Positions 1,871-41,695 of a stretch of DNA of 64,000 nt are shown one piece after another. The position numbers and the translations under genes were made by a program. Origin of the DNA: a virus. Lineage: Duplodnaviria; Caudoviricetes. Numbering within the stretch: the stretch's first letter is position 1; every line of letters starts with the position of its first letter. The stretch is taken from the IMG/VR virus record IMGVR_UViG_3300013902_000015, positions 661 through 64,660 of that record, one strand, 5' to 3'. The notes beneath the pieces are model-generated. The model was not told where the DNA came from. It saw only the letters and a program-made list of their open reading frames with translations, and ran no database searches.

Positions 1871-4800
1871 ATGGCACAAAGTAATGACAATGACGATATT
1901 AAGTGGCTCTACGGCAAGCTGAAAGCCAAGGGCTACAACATCGGCAGTGAGGCAGAGTTCAAGTCCTCGCTTGCTAATGCGGAAGACCGTAAGTGGTACT
2001 ACCAGAAAGCCAAGGGCATGGGCTTGAACATGGGCAGTATGGCAGACTTTGAAGGTATGTATGCGCCCAAGGCTACATCAACACCACAGAAACAGAAGCC
2101 AGCTGCAACCACACAGCCGACCCATGTTGCGACATCAGCAACAACTGCAGGTACAACGCCTACGCCAAGCACGGCTCCTGCCACACAGCAGAAGAAAGAC
2201 AAACCGCTCAGTGAGGCTGACAAACAGAGATTGATGGCCAATGTGGGCAATATGATGTCCGAGACCAACGCTTCGCTCCAGCGAACTCAGAACCGCATGG
2301 ACTATGCAAGAGCCAATGCTGGGCTGAGAGTGCCTCGTGTCACCCTCGGAGACAAGAATAGTGGTGTAAGGCTGGGTCAAAACACCAAGGTTGTGGCAAA
2401 GAAGCCTAAATACAATCCACATTCTGGCAAGATGGAGCAGACCTACATCACGGAGAGTGGCAACGAGTACACAAGCCGTGGTGCGGCAGACTTGGAGCAG
2501 AACAGCATTGATGAGGCCGCAAGACAGCCTCTTGGTCTCAATATGAACGACCAGCAGGTGGACGCGGCACAGAAGCCTGCCAGTGCAGCCGTTGCGGCCT
2601 TGTGGAAAGAGGCAGAGGCGCAGTATGCAGCCGACCGCAACAAGAACGCGGAGGAGGTATATGGCGGCAACCCGTGGCTACATGGAGGGCGTGAGATGCA
2701 CATCGTTGATGCAGCCACCAACTCGCACAAAAACGAGGTGTCTCGCCTTACACGCTTTGATCTGCAGAAAATGATGGACAATGCGTGGGGACGCGTAGGC
2801 AAACAGATGACGGCATCATGCTATGCTCAACTGAAAAAGCAGTACCCCACAGCAACCGAGCAACAATTGCAGAACTCTGCTTCCACGATGGCTCGCAGAC
2901 TGTCGGACAATGCCGTGTACAAGTATGCCGTGGCAAAGAATACACCAAAGAGCACTTTGGAGTTCTTCGCCAAGACCGCAGCCGACATGAACCTATTGCG
3001 CACCATCAGCAAGGGACTGGCACGGAGCGAGGCTGGAACGACTGGCGACATGGCTGCATACGAGCAAGCGATGGGCGATTACGGCAAGAACCACCGCTGG
3101 GCGCAAATTGGTGGTACTGTCACTGGTATGCTTTTTGACCCTACCACTTATATATCTGGCGGTTTCGGCTCGTTTGCAGGTAAGACGGCACTCAACTTGG
3201 GCGGTCGTATTATAGCGAAGAAAGCAGCCACTAATGTAGGCGCACGTCTGTTTGGCAACACGCTGACAGGGCGTGTCGTGGCTGGAGCAGTAGGCGGTGG
3301 TGCAAACTTTGGTGCATACGAGGGCATTAAAGAGGGCGAAAGCCAGTTCCTGCATGGCGGACACATCAACCCCGAGACTGGCGAGAACGAGGGCTATTCG
3401 GCTGGTGACATATTGAAATCCACTGGGCGTGGCACGATGCTTGGCTCTGTGACAGGTACATTTTCCCCTTTGTTGGGCAATGTGGCAGACAAGTGGGTCA
3501 AGGCGACTGAAAGCACGGCTGGCAAGGTAGGCATTCGTGCAGGAGAACTCGCCACTTCCACCATTGCCGAGGGTACGATATTCTCTGTTCCCGAATGGAT
3601 AAGCGGTAATGGCGATGCAATGGACGTATGGACAGACAACATGGCGATGATGCTTGGTTTCAAGGCACAGCACATGGTGAAGTCTGCCCCTCGCGTCATT
3701 GCAGGACTGCGCCCCATAGAGAACCCAAAGACCATGCAGGAGCGCAACCACAACCGCATGAACTTCATGGAAAGACTGCGCACCCAGATGGACAGGAGTC
3801 CGAGCGACATGGCTTTTACCAATGAGGAACGTGAGGAACTGCGCAAGGCTGGTTATGGCGAGTTGGCCGACCTCTTCAAGCGCAGACCCAAGCAGAAGAA
3901 TACTACCAAGCCCCAGCATAAACCACAATCAACAGACGGAAAGGTAATGTATCTTGACATTCCCGAAGCCGATGTTGAGGATTTGGGCAAGCAGTGGCTC
4001 AACCAGCACCCCGAGTTTGACGGCTATGAGGCAATGGAACGTCTCATGCAAGACCCGAATGTGAGCCAGAGCGCGAGAGCCAAGGCATACTATATCCTCA
4101 CTGGACGTCAGTTGCCGATGGGAACCGTTACTGGGTACACTACGGAAAAAGACGAGCACGGCAATATCTTCGTGAAGTCCATGACCGCCAACGGAGAGGT
4201 CGTTACGAGCAGACGCTTTGCCGATGAAGCCTCGGCGAAGAAGGAGCAGGACAAGATTATGCGCCAAGCCGAACTCAACTCCGTAGATGTCGGTGAGCGT
4301 TACACCGAGGCAAAAGCCAACAACAAGGTATGGGAAGCCGCCATTGAAGCCGTTGCCCCCGGTGCAGACACCGAGACTGTAAAGCGCAACTACCAAGCAG
4401 CCAAGGAGGGCGACAAGGACGCAATCGCCAACTATGGGCAAATGGTTGATGCCATCGATAAGTTCATGGAGGAGAACAAAGGCATGGCAGACGCAGAACG
4501 CCCCGAGGCAATCCGTGCGGCCATCAAGGAGGAGACTGGCGTAGATGTGGATGTGGCAATCAAGAAAGAACCGAGCAAGCGCACCGACCCCGAAAAGGTT
4601 GCGGTGCAAGACTACATTGAGCGTCTCTTCCCCGAACAGAAAGCCGAGACCGAGCACCCCAAGTCGGACGCGGAAGCCGAGGCAGGAGCCATTTATGACA
4701 GTTCTCGTCTGCTTTGGGAAAAGGTGGAGCAAGGCGATGCGGACGCAAAAGCCGACATTGACGCTATTTCAATCCGTATGAAGGAAGCCTTGCAGGAATG

Positions 4801-29539: not shown

Positions 29540-30175
29540 ATGGTGTACAAGATAGAAACCGTCTCGCAAGATGTGCGTATCGCCATTGACGAGAACAAGA
29601 CGAGTGAGCAGCTCCTTGGCGATGAGGACATTGACACCTTATCGCTGAACGAGATAGTACGCTCGAAGATAGAGGAAGCCGTGCGCAGGGTGGAAACCAC
29701 CGCCCCCACCTTTCTGTTGGAAGAGGGACACACGTTTGGCGACAGCGTGTTTTGGGAAGAGAACGGCAGCGGCTGGACGCTGTTGCCCGATGACTTCATG
29801 CGGTTGATAGCATTCCGCATGAGCGACTGGGAGCGCACCTGCTACAATGCCATCTCGGTGGACGACCCATTGTATGACCTGCAATCGTCACGGTATAAGG
29901 GAGTGCGCGGCAACGTGCAGAAGCCCGTGTGTGCGGTGGTGAACCGAGCAGAGGGCAAGGCGTTGGAGTTCTACTCGTGTGACAGCGAGGAAGCCTATGT
30001 CAAACGAGCCACGTATCTCCCTTATCCCAAGATAGACGATGAAGACGGCATCGACATATCGGAGCGTTGCTACACAGCCGTGGTCTATACCACAGCATCA
30101 TTAGTATTAACCGCCTATGGCGCGAATGACCGTGCAGAGCAGTTGAACGCCTTGGCAAAATCAATATTGGAATAA
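29540..30175 (+). CDS. Hypothetical virion protein
   Basis: 211-aa ORF whose stop abuts the start of the DGR target gene. Confidence 0.55.
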   Translation: MVYKIETVSQDVRIAIDENKTSEQLLGDEDIDTLSLNEIVRSKIEEAVRRVETTAPTFLLEEGHTFGDSVFWEENGSGWTLLPDDFMRLIAFRMSDWERTCYNAISVDDPLYDLQSSRYKGVRGNVQKPVCAVVNRAEGKALEFYSCDSEEAYVKRATYLPYPKIDDEDGIDISERCYTAVVYTTASLVLTAYGANDRAEQLNALAKSILE

Positions 30176-33100
30176 TGAGTTCAATACCAACAAAACAGAT
30201 AGACGGAGATGTGGCCGTAGGCCGCAACGTCAGCATGGGCGGTTCGGGTACTGTGCGCGGCTCCATGACCGTAGGCCACAACCTGACCGTGGAGGGTTGG
30301 CTTGAAGCCAAGAACATCAAAGGCCCGAACAAGGGACTGTTCAAGACCGCAGCGCAACTGCGCGAAGCCTACCCCAATCCGCATGAGGGCTGGTGGGCAT
30401 TGGTTACCGTAGAGGGCAGTGCCTCGTCCGACCATTTGGGACAACTCTTTGTGGCAGACGGTGGCACATGGGTGGCGCAGGTGGACAGCAGCGGCAACCC
30501 ACTGCTGAAAGGCAACCCCACCGTGGACAGCACCGAGTATATGGAAGCCGTGGAGGAGATGACCGCCGACTTGGAAGCCGTCAAGGTGGACGTGAACCAG
30601 AACAAGGAGGACATCAAGAGCCTCCGCAGCACGCAGACCACCAACACGACCAGCATCAACAACCTCAACACACAGATGGCAACGGCACAGACCGACATTG
30701 CCAATCTGAAGAGTGGCGTGAACAGCGTGCAGAGCGACCTCAACGATTTCAAAAACACAAAGGGCGTTGCCAATGGCATTGCGCCACTGGACGATAACGG
30801 ACAGGTGTCCTCGCAGTATTTGCCCGGCTATGTGGACGATGTGCTGGAATTTGGCGGCATCATGGAAGTGACCGCGCAGCTCATGTCGCTGGCGAAGAAA
30901 TCGACCGATGAGGGATGCAGCATTATCTACAACAGCAAGACCAACACCTTTGTGATAGCCAACACCACAAGCACGGACGAAGGAGAAAAGACCGTCACCT
31001 ATTATAATAACTGGAGTGACGCAGATCTGTTCGGCATATCCGGGTTCAATGGCGTGACACCGCACAGCGGAAAGATATTCATGGACGTGACGACCAACAA
31101 GACCTACCGTTGGAGCGGCACGACCTTGGCCGTCATCGGTTCGGACTTGGCACTTGGCCACAAGAGCGGCACGGCATTCCCCGGAGACGAGGGAGCGGAC
31201 TTGCAGGAGCGCATGACCGAGGTGGAGAGTACGGCAGACATCAACCGCCAACTGATTGACGAGAACTCAGCGGAAACCTTGTACCGCAACACCATCAACG
31301 CTAACGACCTGCTGTCGCTTGGCAGCGGCAAGACCACGTTCTCCGTTGTGCTTGACAGCATCAGCAAACTTGCCAACTTTGCCCGATACAAGAAGCCCGG
31401 CATCGTGCTGACATTCATCACCGAGAACGGCATACAGAACAAGCAGTGGACGAACTGCGGCACACAGAGCACCGATGACTGGAAAAAGGAAAGCAACTGG
31501 ACTGACTTCGGAAGCAACGGCAGTGCCATCGGCAACACCGTGAATGTGAACGACATCTGCGAGGACACCGAATATACCCTTTCAACTGCCATCAAAGCCG
31601 TGCAGGACAAAGAGAAAGAGAGCGGTCTTTCCTATATGAAGAGCGGTGTCGTGCTGACCTACAAGACCGCAGAGACGGACGCGAACCAAGCCCCGAAGTG
31701 GGAAGCCTACCAGTTCACGCGAGCCGTGGGCGACATCAACCCCGCAGACTTGAAACCTTGGGTGGCATTCGGAGGAGGCGGCAACCAAGTGGAAACCACT
31801 GACACCGTAGAGAAAGACAGCGACAAGGCCGTAACCAGCGGAGGCGTGTACGAAGCGTTGCAGACACGCCCAGTGGCCAACTTCAATGACGAGAGCACAG
31901 CCGAGGACTATGTGTTCCAAGGTGTGAACGAGAAAGGCGAAAAGGTGGGCGACCCCATCAAGATACCCAGAAGCAACGGAGGCGGCACGCAGAGCGGAAG
32001 CACCCTCAACATCTACCCGGAGTCGCAAGCCGTGTGGGGCGCATTTGGCAGTAAGATAGTGTTGCGAGCAGCCATCAAGAGTGTAAGTTTTGACGGAGAT
32101 ACCGAGATACCCGGCACCATCAAGACCATCAGCATTATGGACGCACTCACCAAGATGGTACTTTGGAGCGAGGTAGTGAACACCTCTTCCTCTACCAGTG
32201 CAACTAACTACACGTTTGAGTTTGACTTCACCGACTTCATCACCTCGGCATCGAGCAAGGACTTCATCATCGGAGCAACGGACGCAGACGGCAACTCCAA
32301 GACACGCACCATTACCGTAACGGCAGTGGACGTGACCTGCACCTGCATACAGCCCCTGTTCTACTCATCTCCAACGGCATTGGAGGTAGGCGGAAAGGAG
32401 AAGAGCCTGCCGATGTACAAGTTTGAGAACAACGTCAGCACCAAGCAAGGCATACTCGTAACCACGGAGATGTACTACAAGGGCGAGTGGAAAACACTCG
32501 GCACAGCCACCGTCACCGACTCCTATTCGCACAACATCAGTATCAACCCCTGCAACGTGTTCGGAGGAGGCGAGCGTCTGGAACATGGAGCTTACCCCCT
32601 GCGCATAAAAGGCAGGGACGTGGCATCGGGTGTGGAGGGAAACACCATACACACAGCCGTAATGTGTATAGACGCAGCCAACCAGACACCAGTAGTGGCA
32701 TTGCGCTATGACGACAACAACAACGGCAAGGTACGCCTGTATGACAACCTCACGCTTGACATAGCCGCCTACACACCCGGCAAGACCACGACAGCCGTGG
32801 AGGTGTTGATGGACGGAATGGTGATAACCTCGGTGAACTGCCCCATCAGCCAAACATACAGCGTGAGCAAGCAGATACAAGGCTACGCTTCGGACGGCAC
32901 AAAGCACTTTGACATCTTCGCCCGAAGCGGAGAGGCGAAGAGCGAGACCATCACGCTTACCGTGGAGGGGTCAGCCATTGACGCAAGCGTCAAGGAGGGC
33001 GCACTCTTCGCCTTTGACTTCTCAACCCGAAGCAACAGCGAGACCGACCACACCATCAAGGACGGAGAATACGCCATGAGCGTGGAGGGCAGCAACTGGA

Positions 33101-36100
33101 ACTCCAACGGCTTTGTGAGCGTACTGGGCGAGACCGCCCTGCGCATAGCGGAGAACGTGAAAGCAGAGATACCCTACGCGCCTTTCGCCTCGTCTGCATT
33201 GGAGACAAGCGGTGCCGCCATACAGATGGCATTCTCCACGAAGAGCATCAAGGACAAGACCGCCAGACTGTGCGAGTGCTATGACCCTGCGGCAGGTGTG
33301 GGCTTCTACATACAGGGCAACGAGATTGTACTTACCGTGCAGAGCGGAACGCCCAAGGAGCAGCGTGTCGGTTTCAAATGCTCGGAGAAGATAACCGTGG
33401 CCGTGGTGGTAGAACCCGGAAGCAAATATGTGACCTATAAAGCCAACGGCCAGTCGGCAGGAACAAACTACGCCTTTGTGAAACTCTATGTGAACGGTGA
33501 GGAGTGTGCCGCCATCGGCTACCAACCCGGCACAAGCGCACTGCGACAGAACAAGACCATCACGTTCAACTCGGAGAGCGGAGACATCAGCGTGAACTAC
33601 GTCATGGCATACAGCAGTTATATGGAATGGTTGCAAGCATTCAGAAACTACCTGTGCAAGCTGAGTGACGTGAAAGCCATGATAGCCGAGTATGACAAGG
33701 AGAACGTGCTTGACACCACAGGCAAGCCAAGCATGACACTGATGGAAGCCAAGGGAATGCCCTACTATGTCATCGTGGCCGACCAGACCACCTTCAACAA
33801 CTACGACTATGCACTGAACGGAGGCACAAGCACCAGCGACCAGTTCGCCTGTACGTTGTACTACTTCAACCCACAGCACCCCGAGGTGAACTTCAAGGCC
33901 ATCAACGTGCTATGGAGACGACAAGGAACGACCTCGGCACAGCGACCCATCAAGAACGACCGCTTCAACTTCAACAAAAAGAACAAGGCCACAGGCAAGA
34001 AAGCCACCGTGACTCTGCTCAATCCCGATGAAAGCACGGAGTTGGGACGCAAGGCCATACTTGCCGCCAAGCACAACAAAGTGTTCGTGAGTGAGAACGG
34101 CATGTTCGTGGACGTGATAACCGTAAAGGTAGACTATTCGGACAGCAGCAACGCCAACGACTGCGGAGTGTGCGACATGATGAACGCCACGTTCCGCGCA
34201 CTCGGTGCAGCCTACCAAACCCCAGCACAACGTGCCTATGACGGCACGCAGGACTTGGGAGACGGAGACGTGCTGACAGGCTTGCAGATGGATCACTCCA
34301 CGAAGAACCACCCGATAGCCTGTTTCCGTGCTACAAGCGACACCTTGCAGGACGCATGGTTTCATGCCAAAGGCAACTGGAAAGAGGACAAGGGCGAGCA
34401 GACCGCCCTCGGCTTCAAGGACACGCCCGGCTACAACCTCGGCTGCTTGAACTACGGAGACTTTATAGAATACTTCGGCACGCAAGGCGAGACACTCGCC
34501 CAGACAGAGGCACGCTTCAAGCAAGATAGCGACCTTGACACAGGGAGCGTGTATCTCATCTCGCAATACTGCGGACAGGACTATGCCATCTACCGCTACA
34601 AGGACGGAGCGTGGAAACGCTCGACAGGCTCGATGAAGCAGGTGAACGGCAAGTGGAAAGTGACGGGAGACGTGCTGAACCCCGTGACAGGCTACGAACT
34701 GCTGCAATATGCAGGTATGGACTGGTGGCAAGGTGTGACTACCGTAGAGGACATGATGAAGCCGATAGCGCAGAAGTCATCGTGGGTCAACAAACTCGGC
34801 TTGGCCGCAGAGACCTATCCTGCATGGACATACTACTTCGAGTGCATGGTGGACAACGACCAGTTGCAGGAAGACTTGGCACTGGGAAAGAAAGTACCCT
34901 ACGACCTCTTCAACCTGCTGCGTTTCTTTGACAGTTGCGACTACTCCAAAGTGGACGGCTGGCAGAAGATATGGAAAGAGAACGCCTACAAATATATGTC
35001 TCTTGAGAGTGCGATGGCCTACACCGCATTCACCGACTACCTCGCATCCGTTGACCAGCGAGCCAAGAACATGCAGCCTATGTTCTTCTTGGAAGACGGC
35101 TGTTCGGTGGAAAATGGTGTCTATTCGGGCTACAAGAACATGATGCCGACAAGAATGTACCTCAATAAGGTATATGACTGCGACACCTGCAACCAAAGCG
35201 ACAATGATGGTGGCAAGAGCATAGACCCCGAAGTTGACCCCAACAAGCCCACCGACAACGAGACAGGCTACACCAACCCCTACATGGGAAGCGGAAGCGT
35301 GCTGTTCAACAACATGGACAAGCAGCAAGAGTGCTGGAACTCAAACGACCTCGGGGCGACAACCATATCGCTGAAATCGGTGGTGAACAAAATGCGCAAC
35401 CAAACCTCGGAGATAGACGGCAAGACGATGGTTCCGTTCTCCCCGGACGGAGCGACCCACTTCTTTGTGGACGAGCGTCTGCAGTTCTGGCCAAAGGTGG
35501 TGAGCAGCTATGACGGAGAACGCAAGTACATTGACCACACCAGCATAGCCAACCTGCCATATTTCTATGCCCTGCACGGACTGGGACTCACCTCGCTGCC
35601 ACGCTTCATAGAACAGCGGTGGACAATCAGAGACGGCTACTACCAGACAGGCGACTTCTTCACCAATCCGTTGAGCGGACGTGTGTCGGCCATCAGCGAT
35701 GACGCAAAAATATACATCACCGCAGCCGCCACCGGATATTTCGGCATAGGCAATGACGCAAGCGGACAGTTGAGCGAGACCGTGTTTCTTGAAGCAGGAC
35801 AGAGCCATGCGTTCACGCAGTTTGCCCATGACGCAGGAGCACTGCTGTACATCTATCAGCCGGGGCGCATGAGCAAGATTGACCTCTCGGAGATAACCCT
35901 TGCGTTCCACTTCAATGACCTGAGCAAACTGACGCTGTGCGAGGAGATTGTTCTTGGAGGCACGAAGCATACCGCCAACACCTCGCTGAACGGATTTGAG
36001 CCACTGAGCAACATCAAGTTGGGCGACATGCCGTTCCTGCGCAAGCTGGACGTGAGCAAGACCACCGCCACCAGCATAGACGCGAGCGGATGCCCACGAA

Positions 36101-38247
36101 TGGAGAGCATCAACGCCAGTTATACACAGCTGACCAGTTGCGACCTTGCACAGACATCACCGATAGAGAGCCTTGTGTTGCCAAGCAGCGTGACCAAACT
36201 GGAACTTGTGAACCTGCCCAAGCTGACCTATCCCGGAGGACTGGAGATAGCCAGCGTGGAGAACATCAATCGCCTGTGGGTAGAGGGGTGCAGCTTCATT
36301 GACACGGAAAGCCTTGTGCTGACCATAGCCGAGGCAGGAGCAGTGAGAGAAGTGCGCATACCGAACATCAACATGACCGCCAGTGTGAAAGTGTTGCGGC
36401 AGTTGAAGAAGACCAACGCGATAGGTCTTGACGCATCGGGTAAGGCATACGAAGAGACCGGGCAATGCTCGGGCATCACGGGACGCTGGATATTGTCGGA
36501 ACTCATCGAGGACGAGGATGTGGACGGAGAGGCAGGAATGAAGAGCCTTGCGGCCTATTTCCCCGAACTGGAACTCATCAACTCGCAGTTCTCGGTGTTG
36601 AAGATAAACGACATTGTGAGCGGAGACTTCTGCGAGAGATACAGCAATCCCGAAAACGAGACAGGCTCGGACTACGACAAGAACTTCGTGGCAAGCGGAC
36701 ACACGCTGAAGATATTGCAGAACACCCATGCCTACAAATGCACCTACAACTCCAAACTGAAACAGATGGAGGGCGTGCAGTTGAGTGATACCGACTTCAA
36801 CAACCTTGCCACAGGCGAGAGTTTCGATGTGGGCGACAGCGCAGGAGAGGGGTTTGACATCTTCCACCATCTGCCACACCACTGGTATAAAGGCGTGAAC
36901 GACTACAAGACACAGCAGAAGTACATCATCTATTCCACCACGGAGGAAGAGCCGCTATCCACCGTAACCAGCAAAAAGGAGGCGATGCTGTCGGGACTTC
37001 TCTATGCAGAGAACACAGGCGTTTATGCTGATGAAGCCGTTGTGGGCGAAGCCTTGGACGAGACCGTTATCACCACGGCAGCCAACGTGAACACCTACCG
37101 TATGGACGTGGAGGGCATGAAACAGGTGAGATGGCCGGGACTGAACCACGCAAGGCTCGGTGCGGTGTTCACGGACGGGAACGACAAGATAGTTGGCAAG
37201 TTCAACATGATGGTGAGCCACACCTACTTTGACTTTCTGATAGGCAACTATGTGTTCTGCGATGTGCCGAGCGGAGCAAAACGAATGTATTTCACCTCGT
37301 ACCGGGACATTGGCGACATCAAGTGTCTTGCTGTGGACAGTGCGCACATAGAAGCCATAGAACCCGAATGGACGGAACACACCGTGGGCGAGGTAGACAG
37401 TCTCGTAGGGACGTACCCCATCACTATTGACGGACTGAAACGGCCACGCAGCCTTTCGGGAGCGGTGCGTTCCAAGAAAGGAGACGGAACGTCACAGACC
37501 TCAACCGAATGGGCATACGACACGGACGGCAATCCTACAGAAACACCGACAGGGACAATCCACTACACGGCAAAGGACTTCCAAAACAGCGCACACATGC
37601 GCGGTGAGGGCTACCAGCTACAGGACTACGAGCAGCACAAGGAAATCAGCAATCTGTGGTGGGCGACCCACGGCACGACCAACGAGCAGTCGGTGGTGGG
37701 CAATGGCGCACATGATGCCACGCTGAACGCCCAAGACAAGATAGGCATGGCAGACACAGCGTATGTGGGCAACGCCTTGAACTCCATTATGGGACTGAAG
37801 CACTATGTGGGCTGTGACTCGGAATGGATGGACTACATAGCAGGGAACGTGAAGAGCTACGAGACATTCTACAAGAACCGTTGCGTAGATACGAACGATG
37901 ACCCCATAGATTATGTCTTCCACATCTACGACCCGGTGAAGAAAACCGAGCGCACCGTGCAGAGCGTGACCAGCAACGGCAACTGCGTGGTGAGAGTGGT
38001 GCATGGAGCTAAGTGTGACATTTTGCCCAGCAAGGTGCATCAGACAGACGCAAGCAAGTACACCACCCACTATGCGGCAGGCTTGTGGTTTCCCGGCAGC
38101 AGAGGCCGCTGTGTTCTGCGGTCTGGCTACTACTCGTTTGCGAGCAGCGGTCTCGCCTATGCGAGCGCGAACAACGCTGCTTCGTTCTCGTACGCGTACT
38201 GCGGTGGGCGGCTGGCCTTCCGCGGAAAATTCGTGATAGTCGGATAA
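30175..38247 (+). CDS. Large tail-fibre/adhesin-like protein, DGR target (coiled coil, CotH-like motifs, LRR, C-terminal variable lectin-like domain)
   Basis: 2,690 aa. N-terminal heptads then GIAPLDDNGQVSSQYLPGYVDDV. DQRAKNM and YDCDT (~35050-35190). LRR-like repeats (~35850-36450). C-terminus ...RSGYYSFASSGLAYASANNAASFSYAYCGGRLAF contains the VR. Confidence 0.8.
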   Translation: MSSIPTKQIDGDVAVGRNVSMGGSGTVRGSMTVGHNLTVEGWLEAKNIKGPNKGLFKTAAQLREAYPNPHEGWWALVTVEGSASSDHLGQLFVADGGTWVAQVDSSGNPLLKGNPTVDSTEYMEAVEEMTADLEAVKVDVNQNKEDIKSLRSTQTTNTTSINNLNTQMATAQTDIANLKSGVNSVQSDLNDFKNTKGVANGIAPLDDNGQVSSQYLPGYVDDVLEFGGIMEVTAQLMSLAKKSTDEGCSIIYNSKTNTFVIANTTSTDEGEKTVTYYNNWSDADLFGISGFNGVTPHSGKIFMDVTTNKTYRWSGTTLAVIGSDLALGHKSGTAFPGDEGADLQERMTEVESTADINRQLIDENSAETLYRNTINANDLLSLGSGKTTFSVVLDSISKLANFARYKKPGIVLTFITENGIQNKQWTNCGTQSTDDWKKESNWTDFGSNGSAIGNTVNVNDICEDTEYTLSTAIKAVQDKEKESGLSYMKSGVVLTYKTAETDANQAPKWEAYQFTRAVGDINPADLKPWVAFGGGGNQVETTDTVEKDSDKAVTSGGVYEALQTRPVANFNDESTAEDYVFQGVNEKGEKVGDPIKIPRSNGGGTQSGSTLNIYPESQAVWGAFGSKIVLRAAIKSVSFDGDTEIPGTIKTISIMDALTKMVLWSEVVNTSSSTSATNYTFEFDFTDFITSASSKDFIIGATDADGNSKTRTITVTAVDVTCTCIQPLFYSSPTALEVGGKEKSLPMYKFENNVSTKQGILVTTEMYYKGEWKTLGTATVTDSYSHNISINPCNVFGGGERLEHGAYPLRIKGRDVASGVEGNTIHTAVMCIDAANQTPVVALRYDDNNNGKVRLYDNLTLDIAAYTPGKTTTAVEVLMDGMVITSVNCPISQTYSVSKQIQGYASDGTKHFDIFARSGEAKSETITLTVEGSAIDASVKEGALFAFDFSTRSNSETDHTIKDGEYAMSVEGSNWNSNGFVSVLGETALRIAENVKAEIPYAPFASSALETSGAAIQMAFSTKSIKDKTARLCECYDPAAGVGFYIQGNEIVLTVQSGTPKEQRVGFKCSEKITVAVVVEPGSKYVTYKANGQSAGTNYAFVKLYVNGEECAAIGYQPGTSALRQNKTITFNSESGDISVNYVMAYSSYMEWLQAFRNYLCKLSDVKAMIAEYDKENVLDTTGKPSMTLMEAKGMPYYVIVADQTTFNNYDYALNGGTSTSDQFACTLYYFNPQHPEVNFKAINVLWRRQGTTSAQRPIKNDRFNFNKKNKATGKKATVTLLNPDESTELGRKAILAAKHNKVFVSENGMFVDVITVKVDYSDSSNANDCGVCDMMNATFRALGAAYQTPAQRAYDGTQDLGDGDVLTGLQMDHSTKNHPIACFRATSDTLQDAWFHAKGNWKEDKGEQTALGFKDTPGYNLGCLNYGDFIEYFGTQGETLAQTEARFKQDSDLDTGSVYLISQYCGQDYAIYRYKDGAWKRSTGSMKQVNGKWKVTGDVLNPVTGYELLQYAGMDWWQGVTTVEDMMKPIAQKSSWVNKLGLAAETYPAWTYYFECMVDNDQLQEDLALGKKVPYDLFNLLRFFDSCDYSKVDGWQKIWKENAYKYMSLESAMAYTAFTDYLASVDQRAKNMQPMFFLEDGCSVENGVYSGYKNMMPTRMYLNKVYDCDTCNQSDNDGGKSIDPEVDPNKPTDNETGYTNPYMGSGSVLFNNMDKQQECWNSNDLGATTISLKSVVNKMRNQTSEIDGKTMVPFSPDGATHFFVDERLQFWPKVVSSYDGERKYIDHTSIANLPYFYALHGLGLTSLPRFIEQRWTIRDGYYQTGDFFTNPLSGRVSAISDDAKIYITAAATGYFGIGNDASGQLSETVFLEAGQSHAFTQFAHDAGALLYIYQPGRMSKIDLSEITLAFHFNDLSKLTLCEEIVLGGTKHTANTSLNGFEPLSNIKLGDMPFLRKLDVSKTTATSIDASGCPRMESINASYTQLTSCDLAQTSPIESLVLPSSVTKLELVNLPKLTYPGGLEIASVENINRLWVEGCSFIDTESLVLTIAEAGAVREVRIPNINMTASVKVLRQLKKTNAIGLDASGKAYEETGQCSGITGRWILSELIEDEDVDGEAGMKSLAAYFPELELINSQFSVLKINDIVSGDFCERYSNPENETGSDYDKNFVASGHTLKILQNTHAYKCTYNSKLKQMEGVQLSDTDFNNLATGESFDVGDSAGEGFDIFHHLPHHWYKGVNDYKTQQKYIIYSTTEEEPLSTVTSKKEAMLSGLLYAENTGVYADEAVVGEALDETVITTAANVNTYRMDVEGMKQVRWPGLNHARLGAVFTDGNDKIVGKFNMMVSHTYFDFLIGNYVFCDVPSGAKRMYFTSYRDIGDIKCLAVDSAHIEAIEPEWTEHTVGEVDSLVGTYPITIDGLKRPRSLSGAVRSKKGDGTSQTSTEWAYDTDGNPTETPTGTIHYTAKDFQNSAHMRGEGYQLQDYEQHKEISNLWWATHGTTNEQSVVGNGAHDATLNAQDKIGMADTAYVGNALNSIMGLKHYVGCDSEWMDYIAGNVKSYETFYKNRCVDTNDDPIDYVFHIYDPVKKTERTVQSVTSNGNCVVRVVHGAKCDILPSKVHQTDASKYTTHYAAGLWFPGSRGRCVLRSGYYSFASSGLAYASANNAASFSYAYCGGRLAFRGKFVIVG
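38105..38214 (+). repeat. DGR variable repeat (VR)
   Basis: 110-nt match to 39059-39168 with 13 mismatches, 12 of them at TR adenines. Confidence 0.95.
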
Positions 38248-38276
38248 GCGGCAAGCGAAGCCACGAAAAAAGCGTT

Positions 38277-38340
38277 AGAGGGAGAGCCGACGAAAGGAGG
38301 CTGCTCCCTCTCCCTGCTTACTCGCGTAAGCGAGTTTTTT
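38277..38340 (+). terminator. Two hairpins downstream of VR (DGR cis element and/or intrinsic terminator)
   Basis: AGAGGGAG-AGCC / GGCTGCTCCCTCT stem (38277-38311). ACTCGC-GTAA-GCGAGT followed by a T run (38320-38340). Confidence 0.6.
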
Positions 38341-38364
38341 AATGAGCAATGCAAAATAAATAGA

Positions 38365-38402
38365 AAAGTTGTAGGATATATCAACTTTAAGTATTACCTT
38401 TG
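38365..38402 (+). promoter_or_regulatory. Toxin-antitoxin operon promoter with inverted-repeat operator
   Basis: AAAGTTG-N10-CAACTTT (38365-38388). TACCTTTG at 38395-38402, 4 nt before the ATG. Confidence 0.6.
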
Positions 38403-38406
38403 CAGC

Positions 38407-38742
38407 ATGAATTCAGAACGAAAGATATTGCTTTACAAAGACTACTTCCTTACGTTCTACCGCTCTTTGGAAATGGGCGCACAGAAAAAGATAGACTATG
38501 TGCTTGATACGCTGAAGACGCAGGAAAGAGTGAGCGAGAGATTTGTGAAATTCATAAGGGACGGACTCTTTGAAATAAGAGCCTCCCACAACGGAAATAT
38601 ATATCGTGCGTTCTTCATATTCGATGAGGGCAACATCGTGATGCTTTTCAACGGCTTTCAGAAGAAGAGCCAGAAGACACCCTCAAAGGAAATAGAGAAA
38701 GCACTTGAACTTAAAAAGGAATATTATGCAGCAAAGAAATGA
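38407..38742 (+). CDS. RelE/HigB-family (Gp49-like) toxin
   Basis: 111 aa with GLFEIRAS...IYRAFF...LFNGFQKKSQKTPSKEI, characteristic of this family. Confidence 0.85.
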   Translation: MNSERKILLYKDYFLTFYRSLEMGAQKKIDYVLDTLKTQERVSERFVKFIRDGLFEIRASHNGNIYRAFFIFDEGNIVMLFNGFQKKSQKTPSKEIEKALELKKEYYAAKK

Positions 38743-39028
38743 CATTACCAGTTTCGATGCCATTCTTGATGCCAAGTATGGTGCTGTAGGAACTGCGGAG
38801 AGAGAAGCATTCAGAAAGGAAGCCAGCAATTATTGTGTTGGTCAGATAATCCTTGACGCAAGAAAGCAAGAGCACATGACACAATCAGACCTTGCCAAGA
38901 AAGTGGGAACGGACAAGACCTATATCTCACGCATTGAGAAAGGTGTGATAGAACCCGGTGTAGGCATGTTCTTCCGCATCATCGAGGCATTGGGATTGAA
39001 AGTGGACATCGTGCGCCCGATTATGTAA
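38726..39028 (+). CDS. XRE-family HTH antitoxin (HigA-like)
   Basis: ARKQEHMTQSDLAKKVGTDKTYISRIEKG helix-turn-helix. Overlaps the toxin 3' end. Confidence 0.85.
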   Translation: MQQRNDITSFDAILDAKYGAVGTAEREAFRKEASNYCVGQIILDARKQEHMTQSDLAKKVGTDKTYISRIEKGVIEPGVGMFFRIIEALGLKVDIVRPIM

Positions 39029-39058
39029 CAAAAGGAACAAAGGCAGAAAATCCCACGC

Positions 39059-39168
39059 GCCGCTGTGTTCTGCGGTCTGGCAACAACTCGAATGCGAACA
39101 GCGGTCTCGCCTATGCGAACGCGAACAACGCTTCTTCGAACTCGAACACGAACTACGGTGGGCGGCTG
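39059..39168 (+). ncRNA. DGR template repeat (TR)
   Basis: Non-coding copy of the VR with 10 AAC/AAT codons in the VR frame, directly upstream of the RT. Confidence 0.92.
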
Positions 39169-39205
39169 AAATTCTTGGTGGTTAAAATAATCGGGGGACT
39201 CTGAC

Positions 39206-40768
39206 GTGGCACGAGTATTGCCGCAAACAAACTCCGAGGGATTAGAGCCTCGGCAACAGCATATAAATATGGAAAGCCGGAACATAACAACAACCACAAG
39301 TGGGGAGTTGCCAACGCACTCCCCACAGGACAGGAAGGCTGTCAATACATTGGAAGAATTATTGGAACAGGTAGGAGAAAAGACTTCTACCTGTTTTGTT
39401 GCGTACCCACTGACAAACCTTATACCCGAAATCATTGCGGACGACAACATGGAACACTCGTTCAAACGAGTGATGTCGAACCTGCACAATGCAGACACGA
39501 GGAACGGCTTGCGGTGGAGAGAGAAGATAAAGATAGACGGTGTGGAATGTACGCCAAGAATGGTGCGCTACATGAAGCGCAAGGCTGACATTATAGCCAT
39601 GCTGAAGAAGCAGATTGCAGACGGCACATTCCGCATACGACACCTTAAATCGTTTGAGACTAAGGACGGTCCAAAGGTGAGAACCGTACAAGCACCGTCT
39701 GTAATAGAACGTGTAGGCAGCAATGCCATCATGGAAGTGGTGGAACGACACCTTGCTTCCATATTGATAGAGAACACAGCAGCCTCGATAGAGGGGCGCG
39801 GTCCACATGGGCTGTATCACAAGATGCAGGAAGCGAGAGCAGACAATCCCGACCTCATCTATTACTATCAGAGCGACTACAAAGGTTACTATGACCACAT
39901 ACGGCACGACCGACTGATAGCAACCATCAAATGTTACATTGCCGACCCGATACTACTGCCCATACTCATAGACTTTGTAAAGGCATTGCACCCGGAAGAG
40001 AACGTGGGCATCAGTAAGGGACTGCGCTCCTCGCAATTCTTTGGCAACTTGTACCATAACGACATAGACCACAGAATGGAAGAGGCTTGCGGCAAAGACC
40101 GCTACTTCAGATTTTGTGATGACATCTACATATTGGGAAGCGACAAAAGAGAATTGTGGAAACTGCGCGACCTACTGCATAAGGAAAGCGCACCCTACAA
40201 TCTCATCATCAAGCCCAGTGAAAAGGTTGCCCCAGTGAGTGCAGGAATGGACGCATTGGGATTTGTGGACTATGGTGACCACTCACGGCTACGGAAGCGC
40301 ACAAAGGTGAATGCCGCGCGGAAACTGGCAAAGATAAAGTCGAGAAAGCGAAGACAACAAATTATAGGCTCGTTCAAAGGAATGGCATGTCATGCAGACT
40401 GCCAGCATTTATATTATAAATTAACAGGTAAACACATGAAGAAATTTTCAGAAATGGGCGTGACCTATACCCCTGCGGACGGCAAGAAACGCTTTCCCGG
40501 CAAGGTGACACGCTTGGGTGACATCGTGAACATCCCAATTGAAATTCACGACTTCGAGACAGGCATAGACACCAAAGAGGGCGAAGACCGCTACTTGGTG
40601 TCGTTCCGTAATCCCACTAACTCGGAATGGGGCAAGTTCTTCACCGCCTCGCAAGAGATGAAAGGAATACTTGACCAGATAAGCGATATAGAGGACGGCT
40701 TCCCATTCGAGACCATCATCAAGTGTGAGGTGTTTGATGGAAGCAAGCGCAAGTATAACTTCACTTGA
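39206..40768 (+). CDS. DGR reverse transcriptase with ~110-aa C-terminal extension
   Basis: SDYKGYYDHI, GISKGLRSSQFFGNLY (SQ motif of DGR RTs) and RFCDD. The true start may be a downstream Met. Confidence 0.92.
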   Translation: MARVLPQTNSEGLEPRQQHINMESRNITTTTSGELPTHSPQDRKAVNTLEELLEQVGEKTSTCFVAYPLTNLIPEIIADDNMEHSFKRVMSNLHNADTRNGLRWREKIKIDGVECTPRMVRYMKRKADIIAMLKKQIADGTFRIRHLKSFETKDGPKVRTVQAPSVIERVGSNAIMEVVERHLASILIENTAASIEGRGPHGLYHKMQEARADNPDLIYYYQSDYKGYYDHIRHDRLIATIKCYIADPILLPILIDFVKALHPEENVGISKGLRSSQFFGNLYHNDIDHRMEEACGKDRYFRFCDDIYILGSDKRELWKLRDLLHKESAPYNLIIKPSEKVAPVSAGMDALGFVDYGDHSRLRKRTKVNAARKLAKIKSRKRRQQIIGSFKGMACHADCQHLYYKLTGKHMKKFSEMGVTYTPADGKKRFPGKVTRLGDIVNIPIEIHDFETGIDTKEGEDRYLVSFRNPTNSEWGKFFTASQEMKGILDQISDIEDGFPFETIIKCEVFDGSKRKYNFT

Positions 40769-40843
40769 TAACGGCTCACTAAAGATAAAAAGCAGGAAAT
40801 GGTGTGTCGGTGTATCTTTGCAGCGTAACAAATTCATAGCGAC

Positions 40844-41317
40844 ATGGAGAAGATATACGGAACAACCCAACGGCAGGACGGACTGCAACGCATAGGTAAG
40901 AGCAAGTGGCAGTTGTACTACGGCTTCTACGAGGCAGACGGCAGCACCTACGAATACCGCCATACGTTCACCCACAAACCAAGCCTTGAAGAAATCAAGG
41001 AACTTGTGAGAGACGCAATTGATGCGGAAACCAAAGACAAGATAGTGAACCAGTTTGAGTATGACGGCATCAAGGTGTGGCTCACAGACGAGAAGCAGCG
41101 CAACTATGCCTCAATAGAAAACAATGAGGACATAGCCTATCCTCTGACACTGAAACTCAATGAGGAAGCAGACGCAACACCTATCTACCATACATTCCAG
41201 ACGAGAGAGGAGTTTGTCAAGTTCAGCAAAGCCGCATTCGCCTACATTCTGAAAACCATTTCTGACGGCTGGAAAGAAAAGGACAGTGTGGACTGGAGCG
41301 TGTTTGAGACAGCGTAA
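40844..41317 (+). CDS. Hypothetical phage protein (tail-associated, DUF4376-like)
   Basis: 157 aa with KDKIVNQFEYDG..VWLTDEKQRN. TATCTTTG at 40813-40820. Confidence 0.55.
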   Translation: MEKIYGTTQRQDGLQRIGKSKWQLYYGFYEADGSTYEYRHTFTHKPSLEEIKELVRDAIDAETKDKIVNQFEYDGIKVWLTDEKQRNYASIENNEDIAYPLTLKLNEEADATPIYHTFQTREEFVKFSKAAFAYILKTISDGWKEKDSVDWSVFETA

Positions 41318-41338
41318 AAGATTAGAACCCGATAAATG

Positions 41339-41375
41339 AAGGGACGCAGGAGAAAATTCCAGCGTCCCTTTTTTT
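41339..41375 (+). terminator. Intrinsic terminator
   Basis: AAGGGACGC...GCGTCCCTT followed by a T run. Confidence 0.75.
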
Positions 41376-41455
41376 CGTATGCCACAACAGATAAAAAGGA
41401 AAGAGCCTTATGTATAAATAATTTTGCATTCGTGAACATTAAACAAGTAATGAAC

Positions 41456-41695
41456 ATGAAGAAGATTATCAGATGGCTCGGAGCGAGCAACCGATACAAA
41501 CACTTTGTGGGCGGTGTGGTGATAGGACTGGGAGCAGACAGCACCTATTGCGCAGCGTATGCAGGAGTGGGCGTAGCCGCAGCCTTGGAACTCAAAGACG
41601 AGTTGTGGGGCGGCAAGTGGGATTGGATAGACTTTGGCTGCACGGTGGCCGGAGTAGTTGTAGGACGCTTAACAAGATGGGCAGTATGGCAGTAG
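41456..41695 (+). CDS. Small membrane protein
   Basis: MKKIIRWLG... with Gly/Ala-rich hydrophobic segments. TAATTTTG at 41419-41426. Confidence 0.6.
   Translation: MKKIIRWLGASNRYKHFVGGVVIGLGADSTYCAAYAGVGVAAALELKDELWGGKWDWIDFGCTVAGVVVGRLTRWAVWQ

What the first reader, a model, noticed from the sequence alone, without database searches (positions are those of the whole stretch)
38320..39270. Toxin-antitoxin operon occupies the avd slot and may drive TR/RT transcription
Seen: a hairpin plus T run (38320-38340) ends the target-gene transcript. It is followed by a promoter with an inverted-repeat operator (38365-38402), a RelE/HigB toxin and an XRE antitoxin, then only ~30 nt before TR. I saw no terminator or second TAnnTTTG between antitoxin and TR, and no avd-like four-helix ORF. 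Inference: TR-RT is co-transcribed with the TA pair, so antitoxin autorepression would gate receptor diversification (stress-coupled hypermutation). The TA pair could also stabilise the DGR locus.
Basis: partly seen in the sequence, partly recalled or inferred. Interest (0 to 1): 0.78.

Follow-up and report, generated by a model that had tools for sequence, protein, structure and literature searches.

The report
Toxin-antitoxin cassette replaces DGR promoter
In this gut Bacteroides phage, a mobile toxin-antitoxin gene pair with its own promoter has replaced the promoter that normally drives the phage's tail-fibre mutating machinery (a diversity-generating retroelement, DGR), so the two are probably transcribed together, yet related phages show the pair is optional.

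Summary
Downstream of the target gene there is a hairpin with a T run. Next come a 7+7 nt inverted repeat, a TAccTTTG promoter box, a Gp49/HigB-like toxin and an XRE antitoxin. The template repeat (TR) starts 30 nt after the antitoxin stop. No second promoter box, no terminator and no Avd were found.

Comparison with 58 related DGR loci refines the interpretation.
- The 722-nt block 38319-39040 is an exchangeable allele. Thirty-six loci carry a toxin-antitoxin (TA) pair and 22 carry a 115-240 nt TA-less spacer. The two states are interleaved among near-identical phages.
- Every TA-less spacer has one TAnnTTTG box 31-50 nt before TR.
- Every TA allele has its only box 4-5 nt before the toxin ATG and none before TR.
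- The cassette (38364-39038) is a self-contained mobile unit. About 70 Bacteroidales genome loci carry it away from any DGR.
- Both alleles show recent adenine-only changes in the variable repeat (VR).

So co-transcription of TA, TR and RT is likely but unproven. The TA pair is not needed for DGR function and does not replace Avd, because this lineage has no Avd in either allele. Stress-gated hypermutation remains speculation.

The scan noted a different TA pair (HicAB) inside a CPR DGR before (e1-1564629), which was judged a passenger.

The parts
30175..38247 (+). DGR target gene (2690-aa tail-fibre/adhesin-like protein) with the VR at its C-terminal end
   Evidence: ORF list. Homologous large target genes are annotated in phages BS-TP4 and BKO1-TP3.
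38105..38214 (+). Variable repeat (VR)
   Evidence: Aligns to 39059-39168. It has 12 mismatches at TR adenines and 1 at a non-adenine.
38277..38311 (+). Conserved 12-bp hairpin after the target stop codon. It is the left anchor of the allelic block.
   Evidence: RNAfold. Alignment fold of 9 relatives shows compensatory changes in 6 of 12 pairs.
38319..39040 (+). Allelic block that near-identical phages swap for a 115-nt TA-less block (small hairpin plus TAnnTTTG promoter)
   Evidence: Pairwise blastn of L022 versus L030: flanks are 95.7% and 97.7% identical, and the middle is 115 versus 721 nt.
38320..38340 (+). Small hairpin plus T run, a likely intrinsic terminator of the target-gene transcript
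   Evidence: Terminator scan. Folds at -9.2 kcal/mol. An analogous hairpin is present in every relative.
38365..38388 (+). Inverted repeat AAAGTTG-N10-CAACTTT, the predicted antitoxin operator, lying over the -33 region
   Evidence: Exact and unique in the window. Invariant in type A alleles. A related repeat sits about 40 nt before the ATG in genomic copies of the cassette.
38395..38402 (+). Bacteroidetes -7 promoter box TAccTTTG, 4 nt before the toxin ATG. It predicts a leaderless or nearly leaderless mRNA.
   Evidence: The 4-5 nt spacing is conserved in 68 of 73 genomic copies. Consensus as quoted in PMC7366714.
38407..38742 (+). Toxin, Gp49/HigB-like (RelE/ParE superfamily), 111 aa
   Evidence: Pfam PF05973 E 1.4e-22. 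PDB HigB 6af3 E 3.4e-4. phrog_3445 'toxin'. dN/dS 0.05-0.15.
38726..39028 (+). Antitoxin, XRE-type HTH, 100 aa, overlapping the toxin gene by 17 nt
   Evidence: Pfam HTH_3 E 3.4e-14. NCBIfam Y4mF/HipB-type antitoxin hits below the curated cut-off. dN/dS 0.03-0.11.
39041..39058 (+). Conserved TR leader (AAGGCAGAAAATCCCACG), the right anchor of the allelic block. In TA-less relatives it lies 8-21 nt after the promoter box.
39059..39168 (+). Template repeat (TR)
39169..39268 (+). TR-RT spacer with a conserved hairpin (39234-39253)
   Evidence: Conserved in all relatives. The hairpin was picked up by the scan on the opposite strand.
39269..40768 (+). DGR reverse transcriptase (499 aa) with a conserved C-terminal OB-fold-like domain (about 40436-40765)
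   Evidence: RVT_1. 64 related loci found. C-terminal domain.

Best explanation
The locus is an Avd-less DGR of a roughly 65-kb temperate Bacteroides phage. The DGR's own sigma-ABfr-type promoter, which in TA-less relatives lies 8-21 nt upstream of the TR leader, has been replaced here by a self-contained mobile HigB/Gp49-XRE toxin-antitoxin cassette.

Shown:
- The cassette brings its own palindromic operator and a -7 box placed 4 nt before the toxin ATG. It brings no terminator.
- It is an exchangeable allele, moved between phages by homologous recombination at two conserved anchors: the hairpin after the target gene and the TR leader.
- It is dispensable for mutagenic homing.

Inferred:
- Transcription starting at the TA promoter runs through toxin and antitoxin into TR, the spacer and the RT gene. 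TR RNA and RT mRNA are therefore the 3' part of the TA operon, much as TR and brt follow avd in the BPP-1 operon.
- TR/RT expression then inherits whatever autoregulation the antitoxin exerts on its operator.
For: 1. Promoter logic. Each of the 58 loci that has both VR and TR carries one TAnnTTTG in the VR-TR interval (BS-TP4 has two, both upstream of its toxin). In the 22 TA-less loci, which comprise 9 sequence-distinct spacers, it lies at -31 to -50 from TR. In the 36 TA loci it lies at -665 to -672, just before the toxin, and none lies before TR. The window-wide motif density is about 1 per 3,900 nt per strand.
2. Only 10-16 nt separate the antitoxin stop from the conserved TR leader. No terminator-like site is present there.
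3. The DGR is active in the TA allele. L023, L024 and L028 differ by 0-3 nt in 1.5 kb on either flank, 0-1 nt in the TA block and 0 nt in TR, but by 10-15 nt in the 110-nt VR, all at TR adenines. The TA-less allele behaves the same way.
4. Cassette autonomy. Homology between the window and about 70 non-DGR Bacteroidales loci runs from 38364 to 39028-39038, from the operator to just past the antitoxin stop. The box-to-ATG spacing of 4-5 nt holds in 68 of 73 loci, and the inverted repeat sits about 40 nt before the ATG.
5. Both genes are under purifying selection, dN/dS 0.03-0.15.
6. The allelic swap has clean boundaries. The RT tree needs at least 7 changes of TA state.
7. The same slot is occupied in divergent DGRs. 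L044 has 65% RT identity. L081 has an RT closest to the TA-less outgroup clade (62% to L060, 50% to the window), yet its TA proteins are 83% and 79% identical to the window's. BS-TP4 carries a different Gp49-like/XRE pair, 32-34% identical.
Against: - There are no transcript data. Co-transcription rests on a motif consensus and on the absence of a recognisable terminator.
- Promoters for ECF or phage-encoded sigma factors, or degenerate -7 boxes, would not have been seen.
- TR/RT RNA could also come from read-through of the late operon past the two hairpins.
- RNA processing could uncouple TA from TR-RT.
- VR diversity among metagenomic contigs shows activity in the lineage, not which promoter drove it.
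- Most loci come from one IMG/VR data set.
- The tree is the quick version; the careful search did not finish.
Confidence: 0.6

Rival explanations
1. Passenger moron. The TA cassette is a selfish or host-benefiting module (prophage addiction, or defence against other phages) that landed in a permissive intergenic spot. Its promoter happens to substitute for the native one. Selection acts on the TA function alone and DGR regulation is not meaningfully changed.
For: - The cassette lives mostly outside DGRs: about 70 of 80 genomic loci.
- It is gained and lost among near-identical phages.
- DGR activity looks the same in both alleles.
Against: - The slot holds only TA cassettes or nothing in 58 loci.
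- At least two unrelated-in-sequence Gp49/XRE pairs and three deep RT lineages use the same position.
- In every case the native promoter is absent rather than retained beside the insert.
- This rival is compatible with co-transcription. It disputes only selected coupling.
Confidence: 0.3
2. Independent transcription. TR-RT has its own unrecognised start inside or just after the antitoxin gene, or is made only by read-through from the late structural operon during lytic growth. The TA operon would then be transcriptionally separate in practice.
For: - Only the sigma-ABfr consensus was searched.
- An E. coli-type 9/12 match lies at 38996-39024.
- All genes from the target to lysis are co-oriented.
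Against: - No TAnnTTTG, even with one mismatch, lies between 38539 and 39268.
- The sigma-70-type match is no more than shuffles give, and Bacteroides lacks classical -10/-35 promoters (PMC7366714).
- TA-less relatives keep a dedicated box right before TR, which argues that late-operon read-through alone is not sufficient.
Confidence: 0.1

Closest known systems
Bordetella phage BPP-1 DGR (mtd-VR, avd, TR, brt)
   Same: - Gene order is target-VR, small ORF(s), TR, RT.
- TR lies downstream of protein-coding sequence in what is probably one transcript.
- VR/TR differences are adenine-specific.
- The target is a C-terminal receptor-binding region of a tail fibre.
   Different: - The ORFs before TR are a toxin-antitoxin pair, not Avd.
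- No Avd family match exists anywhere in the phage.
- The ORFs are optional, because TA-less relatives have only a promoter there.
- The RT carries a C-terminal OB-fold-like domain.
Type II HigBA-like toxin-antitoxin modules (Gp49/PF05973 toxin with XRE antitoxin; solved example S. pneumoniae HigBA, PDB 6af3)
   Same: - Toxin-first order with overlapping genes.
- RelE/ParE-superfamily toxin and HTH-XRE antitoxin.
- A palindrome over the promoter, as expected for autoregulation.
   Different: - Sequence similarity to solved HigB is weak (E 3.4e-4).
- The promoter is the Bacteroidetes -7 type and predicts a leaderless toxin mRNA.
- Here the operon has no terminator and runs into a retroelement template.
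Phage morons (autonomously expressed accessory cassettes in prophages)
   Same: - Presence/absence polymorphism between near-identical phages.
- Own promoter.
- Located between conserved late-region genes.
   Different: - No terminator of its own.
- It removes the neighbouring unit's promoter instead of sitting beside it.
Toxin-antitoxin cassettes (including higBA) in Vibrio superintegrons that limit deletions between repeats. This comparison is recalled from my own knowledge and was not checked here.
   Same: A promoter-bearing TA cassette lies between direct repeats whose recombination would delete it. Here the repeats are VR and TR, 110 bp and about 88% identical.
   Different: No evidence here that deletions are counter-selected. 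Collapsed VR/TR loci were seen only twice (L001, L061) and could be assembly artefacts.
HicB-HicA pair between TR and RT of a Ca. Kaiserbacteria DGR
   Same: A type II TA pair sits inside a DGR that is still active.
   Different: - Different TA family, and a different slot (TR-RT rather than VR-TR).
- Seen in a single species.
I did not check this.

Membership tests
Diversity-generating retroelement | Reverse transcriptase gene next to a template repeat | tested here: met
   RVT_1 E 9.7e-11, above the cut-off. TR ends 100 nt upstream of the RT start.
Diversity-generating retroelement | VR/TR pair differing essentially only at TR adenines | tested here: met
   Window: 12 adenine and 1 non-adenine mismatch. 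Relatives: 4-17 adenine and 0-4 non-adenine mismatches. VR-VR differences between near-identical phages all fall at TR adenines.
Diversity-generating retroelement | Avd accessory protein (present in most DGRs, not all) | tested here: not met
   Six-frame search of the whole 64.7-kb record with PF05635 found no match at E<=1. The only ORFs between VR and RT are the TA pair.
Type II toxin-antitoxin, HigBA-like | Toxin of the RelE/ParE superfamily (Gp49/HigB) | tested here: met
   PF05973, 79.9 bits against a cut-off of 23.9. HigB 6af3 E 3.4e-4. NCBIfam TIGR02683 is below its cut-off.
Type II toxin-antitoxin, HigBA-like | Adjacent DNA-binding antitoxin in the same operon, toxin gene first | tested here: met
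   HTH_3, 53.1 bits against a cut-off of 23. 17-nt overlap. The pair is kept together in 75 of 80 genomic loci.
Type II toxin-antitoxin, HigBA-like | Palindromic operator at the promoter (autoregulation) | tested here: inconclusive
   A perfect 7+7 inverted repeat is conserved in position. Binding and repression were not testable.
Type II toxin-antitoxin, HigBA-like | Toxin arrests growth and the antitoxin neutralises it | not testable with these tools
   Only indirect evidence: dN/dS 0.03-0.15 on both genes.
Phage moron | Own promoter and own terminator; present or absent between otherwise similar phages | tested here: inconclusive
   Promoter motif present. Polymorphism present. No terminator of its own.

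The most novel reading that the evidence does not exclude
The TA cassette is a selected part of this DGR allele, not a passenger, in two ways.
1. TR RNA and RT are made only as the tail of an antitoxin-repressed, leaderless operon. Receptor diversification would then be held low in the lysogen and pulsed when the antitoxin is depleted.
2. The cassette lies exactly between the two 110-bp direct repeats, VR and TR. Lysogens in which VR x TR recombination collapses the DGR would lose it and be killed or arrested by the toxin. Such a collapse is seen in BKO1-TP3 and L061.

This would explain why different Gp49/XRE pairs recur at this one position in three deep DGR lineages.
Probability: 0.2. Interest if true: 0.8.

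Novelty: new variant of a known kind. Interest (0 to 1): 0.55.

Why it matters
How DGRs are switched on is largely unknown outside BPP-1. This phage lineage is common in human gut samples. It offers a natural pair of alleles, one with a plain promoter and one with an autoregulated toxin-antitoxin operon in front of the same TR-RT unit. Both alleles are demonstrably active, and a cultured representative exists (BS-TP4 in Bacteroides salyersiae). That makes DGR regulation, and any link between toxin-antitoxin state and receptor diversification, directly testable. It also shows that a TA cassette can take over the promoter function of a neighbouring unit. Genome annotators would otherwise read this as two unrelated features.

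Tried and rejected
- 'TA replaces Avd' was rejected. TA-less relatives have no gene in the slot, and no Avd exists in the phage.
- 'Recent one-off insertion' was rejected. TA divergence tracks RT divergence down to 65% RT identity (dS 0.5 to over 2), and the cassette sits in the same slot of a DGR from the other deep clade.
- 'TA needed for DGR' was rejected.
- The E. coli-type promoter scan gave no more hits than shuffles and is not applicable to Bacteroides.
- A blastn search of the cassette against 50,697 phage records gave one weak unannotated hit, so isolated phages add nothing beyond BS-TP4.
- Literature searches pairing DGR with toxin-antitoxin, HigB or addiction module found no description of a TA pair inside a DGR. 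The paper describing BS-TP4 reports its DGR but never uses the word 'toxin'.
- BKO1-TP3 looked at first like a TA-less relative. It is in fact a single VR/TR hybrid copy, so it says nothing about the slot.
- The careful maximum-likelihood search did not finish in time, so the quick tree was used.
- One alignment reference (L064) was dropped because of a stop codon in the chosen range.
Full report
**What is in the window**

Reading 37000-41500 and the ORF list gives, all on the + strand:
- A 2690-aa gene ending at 38247.
- A 35-nt hairpin at 38277-38311.
- A small hairpin ACTCGC-GTAA-GCGAGT at 38320-38335, followed by a T run.
- An inverted repeat AAAGTTG-N10-CAACTTT at 38365-38388.
- TAccTTTG at 38395-38402.
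- A 111-aa ORF at 38407-38742.
- A 100-aa ORF at 38726-39028.
- A second copy of the gene's last 110 nt at 39059-39168.
- A 499-aa reverse transcriptase at 39269-40768.

The annotations are as follows.
- The 111-aa protein is Pfam Gp49 (PF05973, E 1.4e-22). The 100-aa protein is HTH_3 (E 3.4e-14). The RT is RVT_1.
- The closest solved sequence relative of the toxin is HigB 6af3. The antitoxin matches HipB/XRE-type repressors.
- The two repeats differ at 12 template adenines and one other base, so this is a DGR with VR at 38105-38214 and TR at 39059-39168.
- The terminator scan finds the small hairpin with its T run, and nothing on the + strand between the toxin gene and the end of the RT gene.
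- TAnnTTTG, the Bacteroides sigma-ABfr -7 consensus (PMC7366714), occurs on the + strand only at 38395 between 38300 and 40812. Allowing one mismatch adds a single site, inside the toxin gene.
- A six-frame search of the whole 64,660-nt virus record with the Avd family finds nothing.

**Relatives**

Two cultured Bacteroides temperate phages match the RT region.
- BS-TP4 has a 'RelE' gene and a 'transcriptional regulator' gene in the same slot. These proteins are only 34% and 32% identical to the window's pair.
- BKO1-TP3 has a single hybrid VR/TR copy fused to the target gene.

A scan of IMG/VR with the RT gave 64 loci. Locating VR and TR in each by blastn shows two architectures. The VR-TR interval is either about 830-905 nt with two ORFs of about 111 and 100 aa (36 loci, counting the window and BS-TP4), or 164-240 nt with no ORF (22 loci).

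**The key result**

- In each of the 22 TA-less loci, which comprise nine sequence-distinct spacers, there is exactly one TAnnTTTG. It lies 31-50 nt before TR, which is 8-21 nt before a conserved leader AGGCAGAWAAYCCC.
- In each of the 36 TA loci the only box or boxes lie just before the toxin ATG (665-672 nt before TR in type A), and none lies between the antitoxin and TR.
- The antitoxin stop is 10-16 nt from the same leader.
- The motif occurs about once per 3,900 nt per strand in the window, so its constant position in independent spacers is not chance.

The TA cassette thus sits exactly where the native TR promoter would be, and it brings the only recognisable promoter.

**The cassette is a mobile, self-contained unit**

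- A scan of one genome per species with the toxin returned 80 Bacteroidales loci, 61-94% identical.
- Seventy-five of them keep the antitoxin. Only about eight have DGR parts nearby.
- Nucleotide homology to the window in the non-DGR loci runs from 38364 to 39028-39038. That is from the operator to just past the antitoxin stop, and no further.
- Across 73 analysable loci, TAnnTTTG ends 4-5 nt before the toxin ATG in 68. An AAAGTT...AACTTT inverted repeat lies about 40 nt before the ATG.
- With the box centred near -7, transcription should start at or next to the ATG, giving a leaderless mRNA. This is an inference. Such mRNAs make up about 3.7% of B. thetaiotaomicron mRNAs (PMC7366714).
- Both genes are under purifying selection, dN/dS 0.03-0.15.

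**The cassette is an exchangeable allele**

- L022 (TA-less) and L030 (TA) are 95.7% identical over 3 kb to the left and 97.7% identical over 5.7 kb to the right. Between the anchors they carry 115 nt versus 721 nt of unrelated sequence. In window coordinates the block is 38319-39040.
- On a quick RT tree the two states are interleaved among almost identical RTs. At least seven changes are forced by well-supported branches.
- The state also varies in deeper lineages. L044 (RT 65% identical) has the cassette, and its sisters L046 and L047 do not.
- The outgroup clade in IMG/VR (RT about 50% identical) lacks the cassette. However, L081, a Duncaniella MAG whose RT is closest to that clade (62% to L060, 50% to the window), has it in the same slot, with TA proteins 83% and 79% identical to the window's.
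- In all 58 loci the slot holds either a Gp49/XRE pair or nothing.

**DGR activity in both alleles**

- VR/TR mismatches are adenine-specific in both alleles: 4-16 with the cassette and 4-17 without it, and non-adenine mismatches are nearly absent.
- More tellingly, L023, L024 and L028 (TA allele) differ by 0-3 nt in each 1.5-kb flank, 0-1 nt in the TA block and 0 nt in TR, but by 10-15 nt in VR, all at TR adenines.
- L014, L015 and L045 (TA-less) show the same pattern, with 13-19 VR differences.

The DGR is therefore recently active with the cassette in front of TR, and equally active without it.

**Interpretation**

The structural facts are firm:
- an autonomous, probably autoregulated TA operon has replaced the DGR's promoter;
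- it has no terminator;
- it is optional.

From these I infer that TR and RT are transcribed by read-through from the TA promoter. This matches the canonical avd-TR-brt operon of BPP-1, in that coding sequence precedes TR. I put this at about 0.6, because no transcript data exist and other promoter types were not searched.

- that the pair fills the role of Avd;
- that antitoxin autorepression gates hypermutation under stress;
- that the pair stabilises the locus.

That criterion does not contradict co-transcription, though.

One observation keeps a functional reading alive. Different Gp49/XRE pairs recur at this one position in three deep RT lineages, and the position lies between two 110-bp direct repeats whose recombination deletes the interval. 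Such a deletion is seen in BKO1-TP3 and L061, although these could be assembly artefacts.

**Comparison with what is known**

I found no paper describing a TA pair inside a DGR. The paper describing BS-TP4 reports its DGR but does not mention the toxin genes. TA pairs inside DGRs have therefore been seen before in this scan, on other DNA, with a different family and a different slot.

I class the present case as a new variant of known kinds: a DGR plus a type II TA moron. The specific new point is the promoter replacement and its recurrence.

**Limits**

- Most relatives come from one IMG/VR data set.
- Metagenome assemblies can mis-join VR and TR.
- The tree is the quick version.
- Promoter calls rest on a consensus.

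Noticed in passing
window 40436-40765: The last roughly 110 aa of the RT are much better conserved (65-93% identity) than the RT as a whole (48-90%). The AF2 model has pLDDT 79. Its best structural matches are OB-fold single-strand binders, all weak but consistent: PRD1 P12 Z 6.1, Rim1 Z 6.0, PrgE Foldseek E 3e-3. The domain also matches a stand-alone phage family, phrog_19665. It may be a built-in nucleic-acid-binding accessory domain in this Avd-less DGR.
   Followed up: partly
window 38277-38311: A 12-bp hairpin about 30 nt after the target stop codon is conserved in all relatives, with compensatory changes in 6 of 12 pairs. It has no T run. It could be a cis element for DGR homing or an RNA stability element. 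It forms the left boundary of the allelic block.
   Followed up: partly
L001 5990-6130 (BKO1-TP3); L061 3785-3900: VR and TR are merged into one hybrid copy fused to the target gene, and the whole interval is deleted. This is either VR x TR recombination or assembly collapse.
   Followed up: partly
L048 3354-3551: A tandem partial duplication of the VR (82 nt plus the full 109 nt) lies inside the target gene of a TA-less relative.
   Followed up: no
L008, L010, L011 (TR at about 3794-3900): These template repeats have lost many adenines (18, 16 and 10, against 24 in their relatives) and differ from sister TRs at 6-16 positions. Either the TR has been corrupted by VR-to-TR conversion, or the assemblies are chimeric.
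   Followed up: no
L077 780-1000; L072 3460-4391: These are degenerate DGR remnants that keep an intact TA cassette. In L077 the TR 3' end is fused into the RT coding region. L072 has TA, TR and spacer but no target gene upstream and no RT downstream.
   Followed up: no
window 40813-41317: A DUF4376 gene with its own TAtcTTTG box follows the RT. It is conserved in that position in BS-TP4 and BKO1-TP3.
   Followed up: no
L012, L013, L049 (spacer ORFs): This is a third TA variant. Its toxin is only 63-65% identical to the window's, while its antitoxin is 83-84% identical and its RT 86-90%. That suggests recombination within the cassette. In L009 the toxin reading frame ends early, at 100 aa.
   Followed up: no
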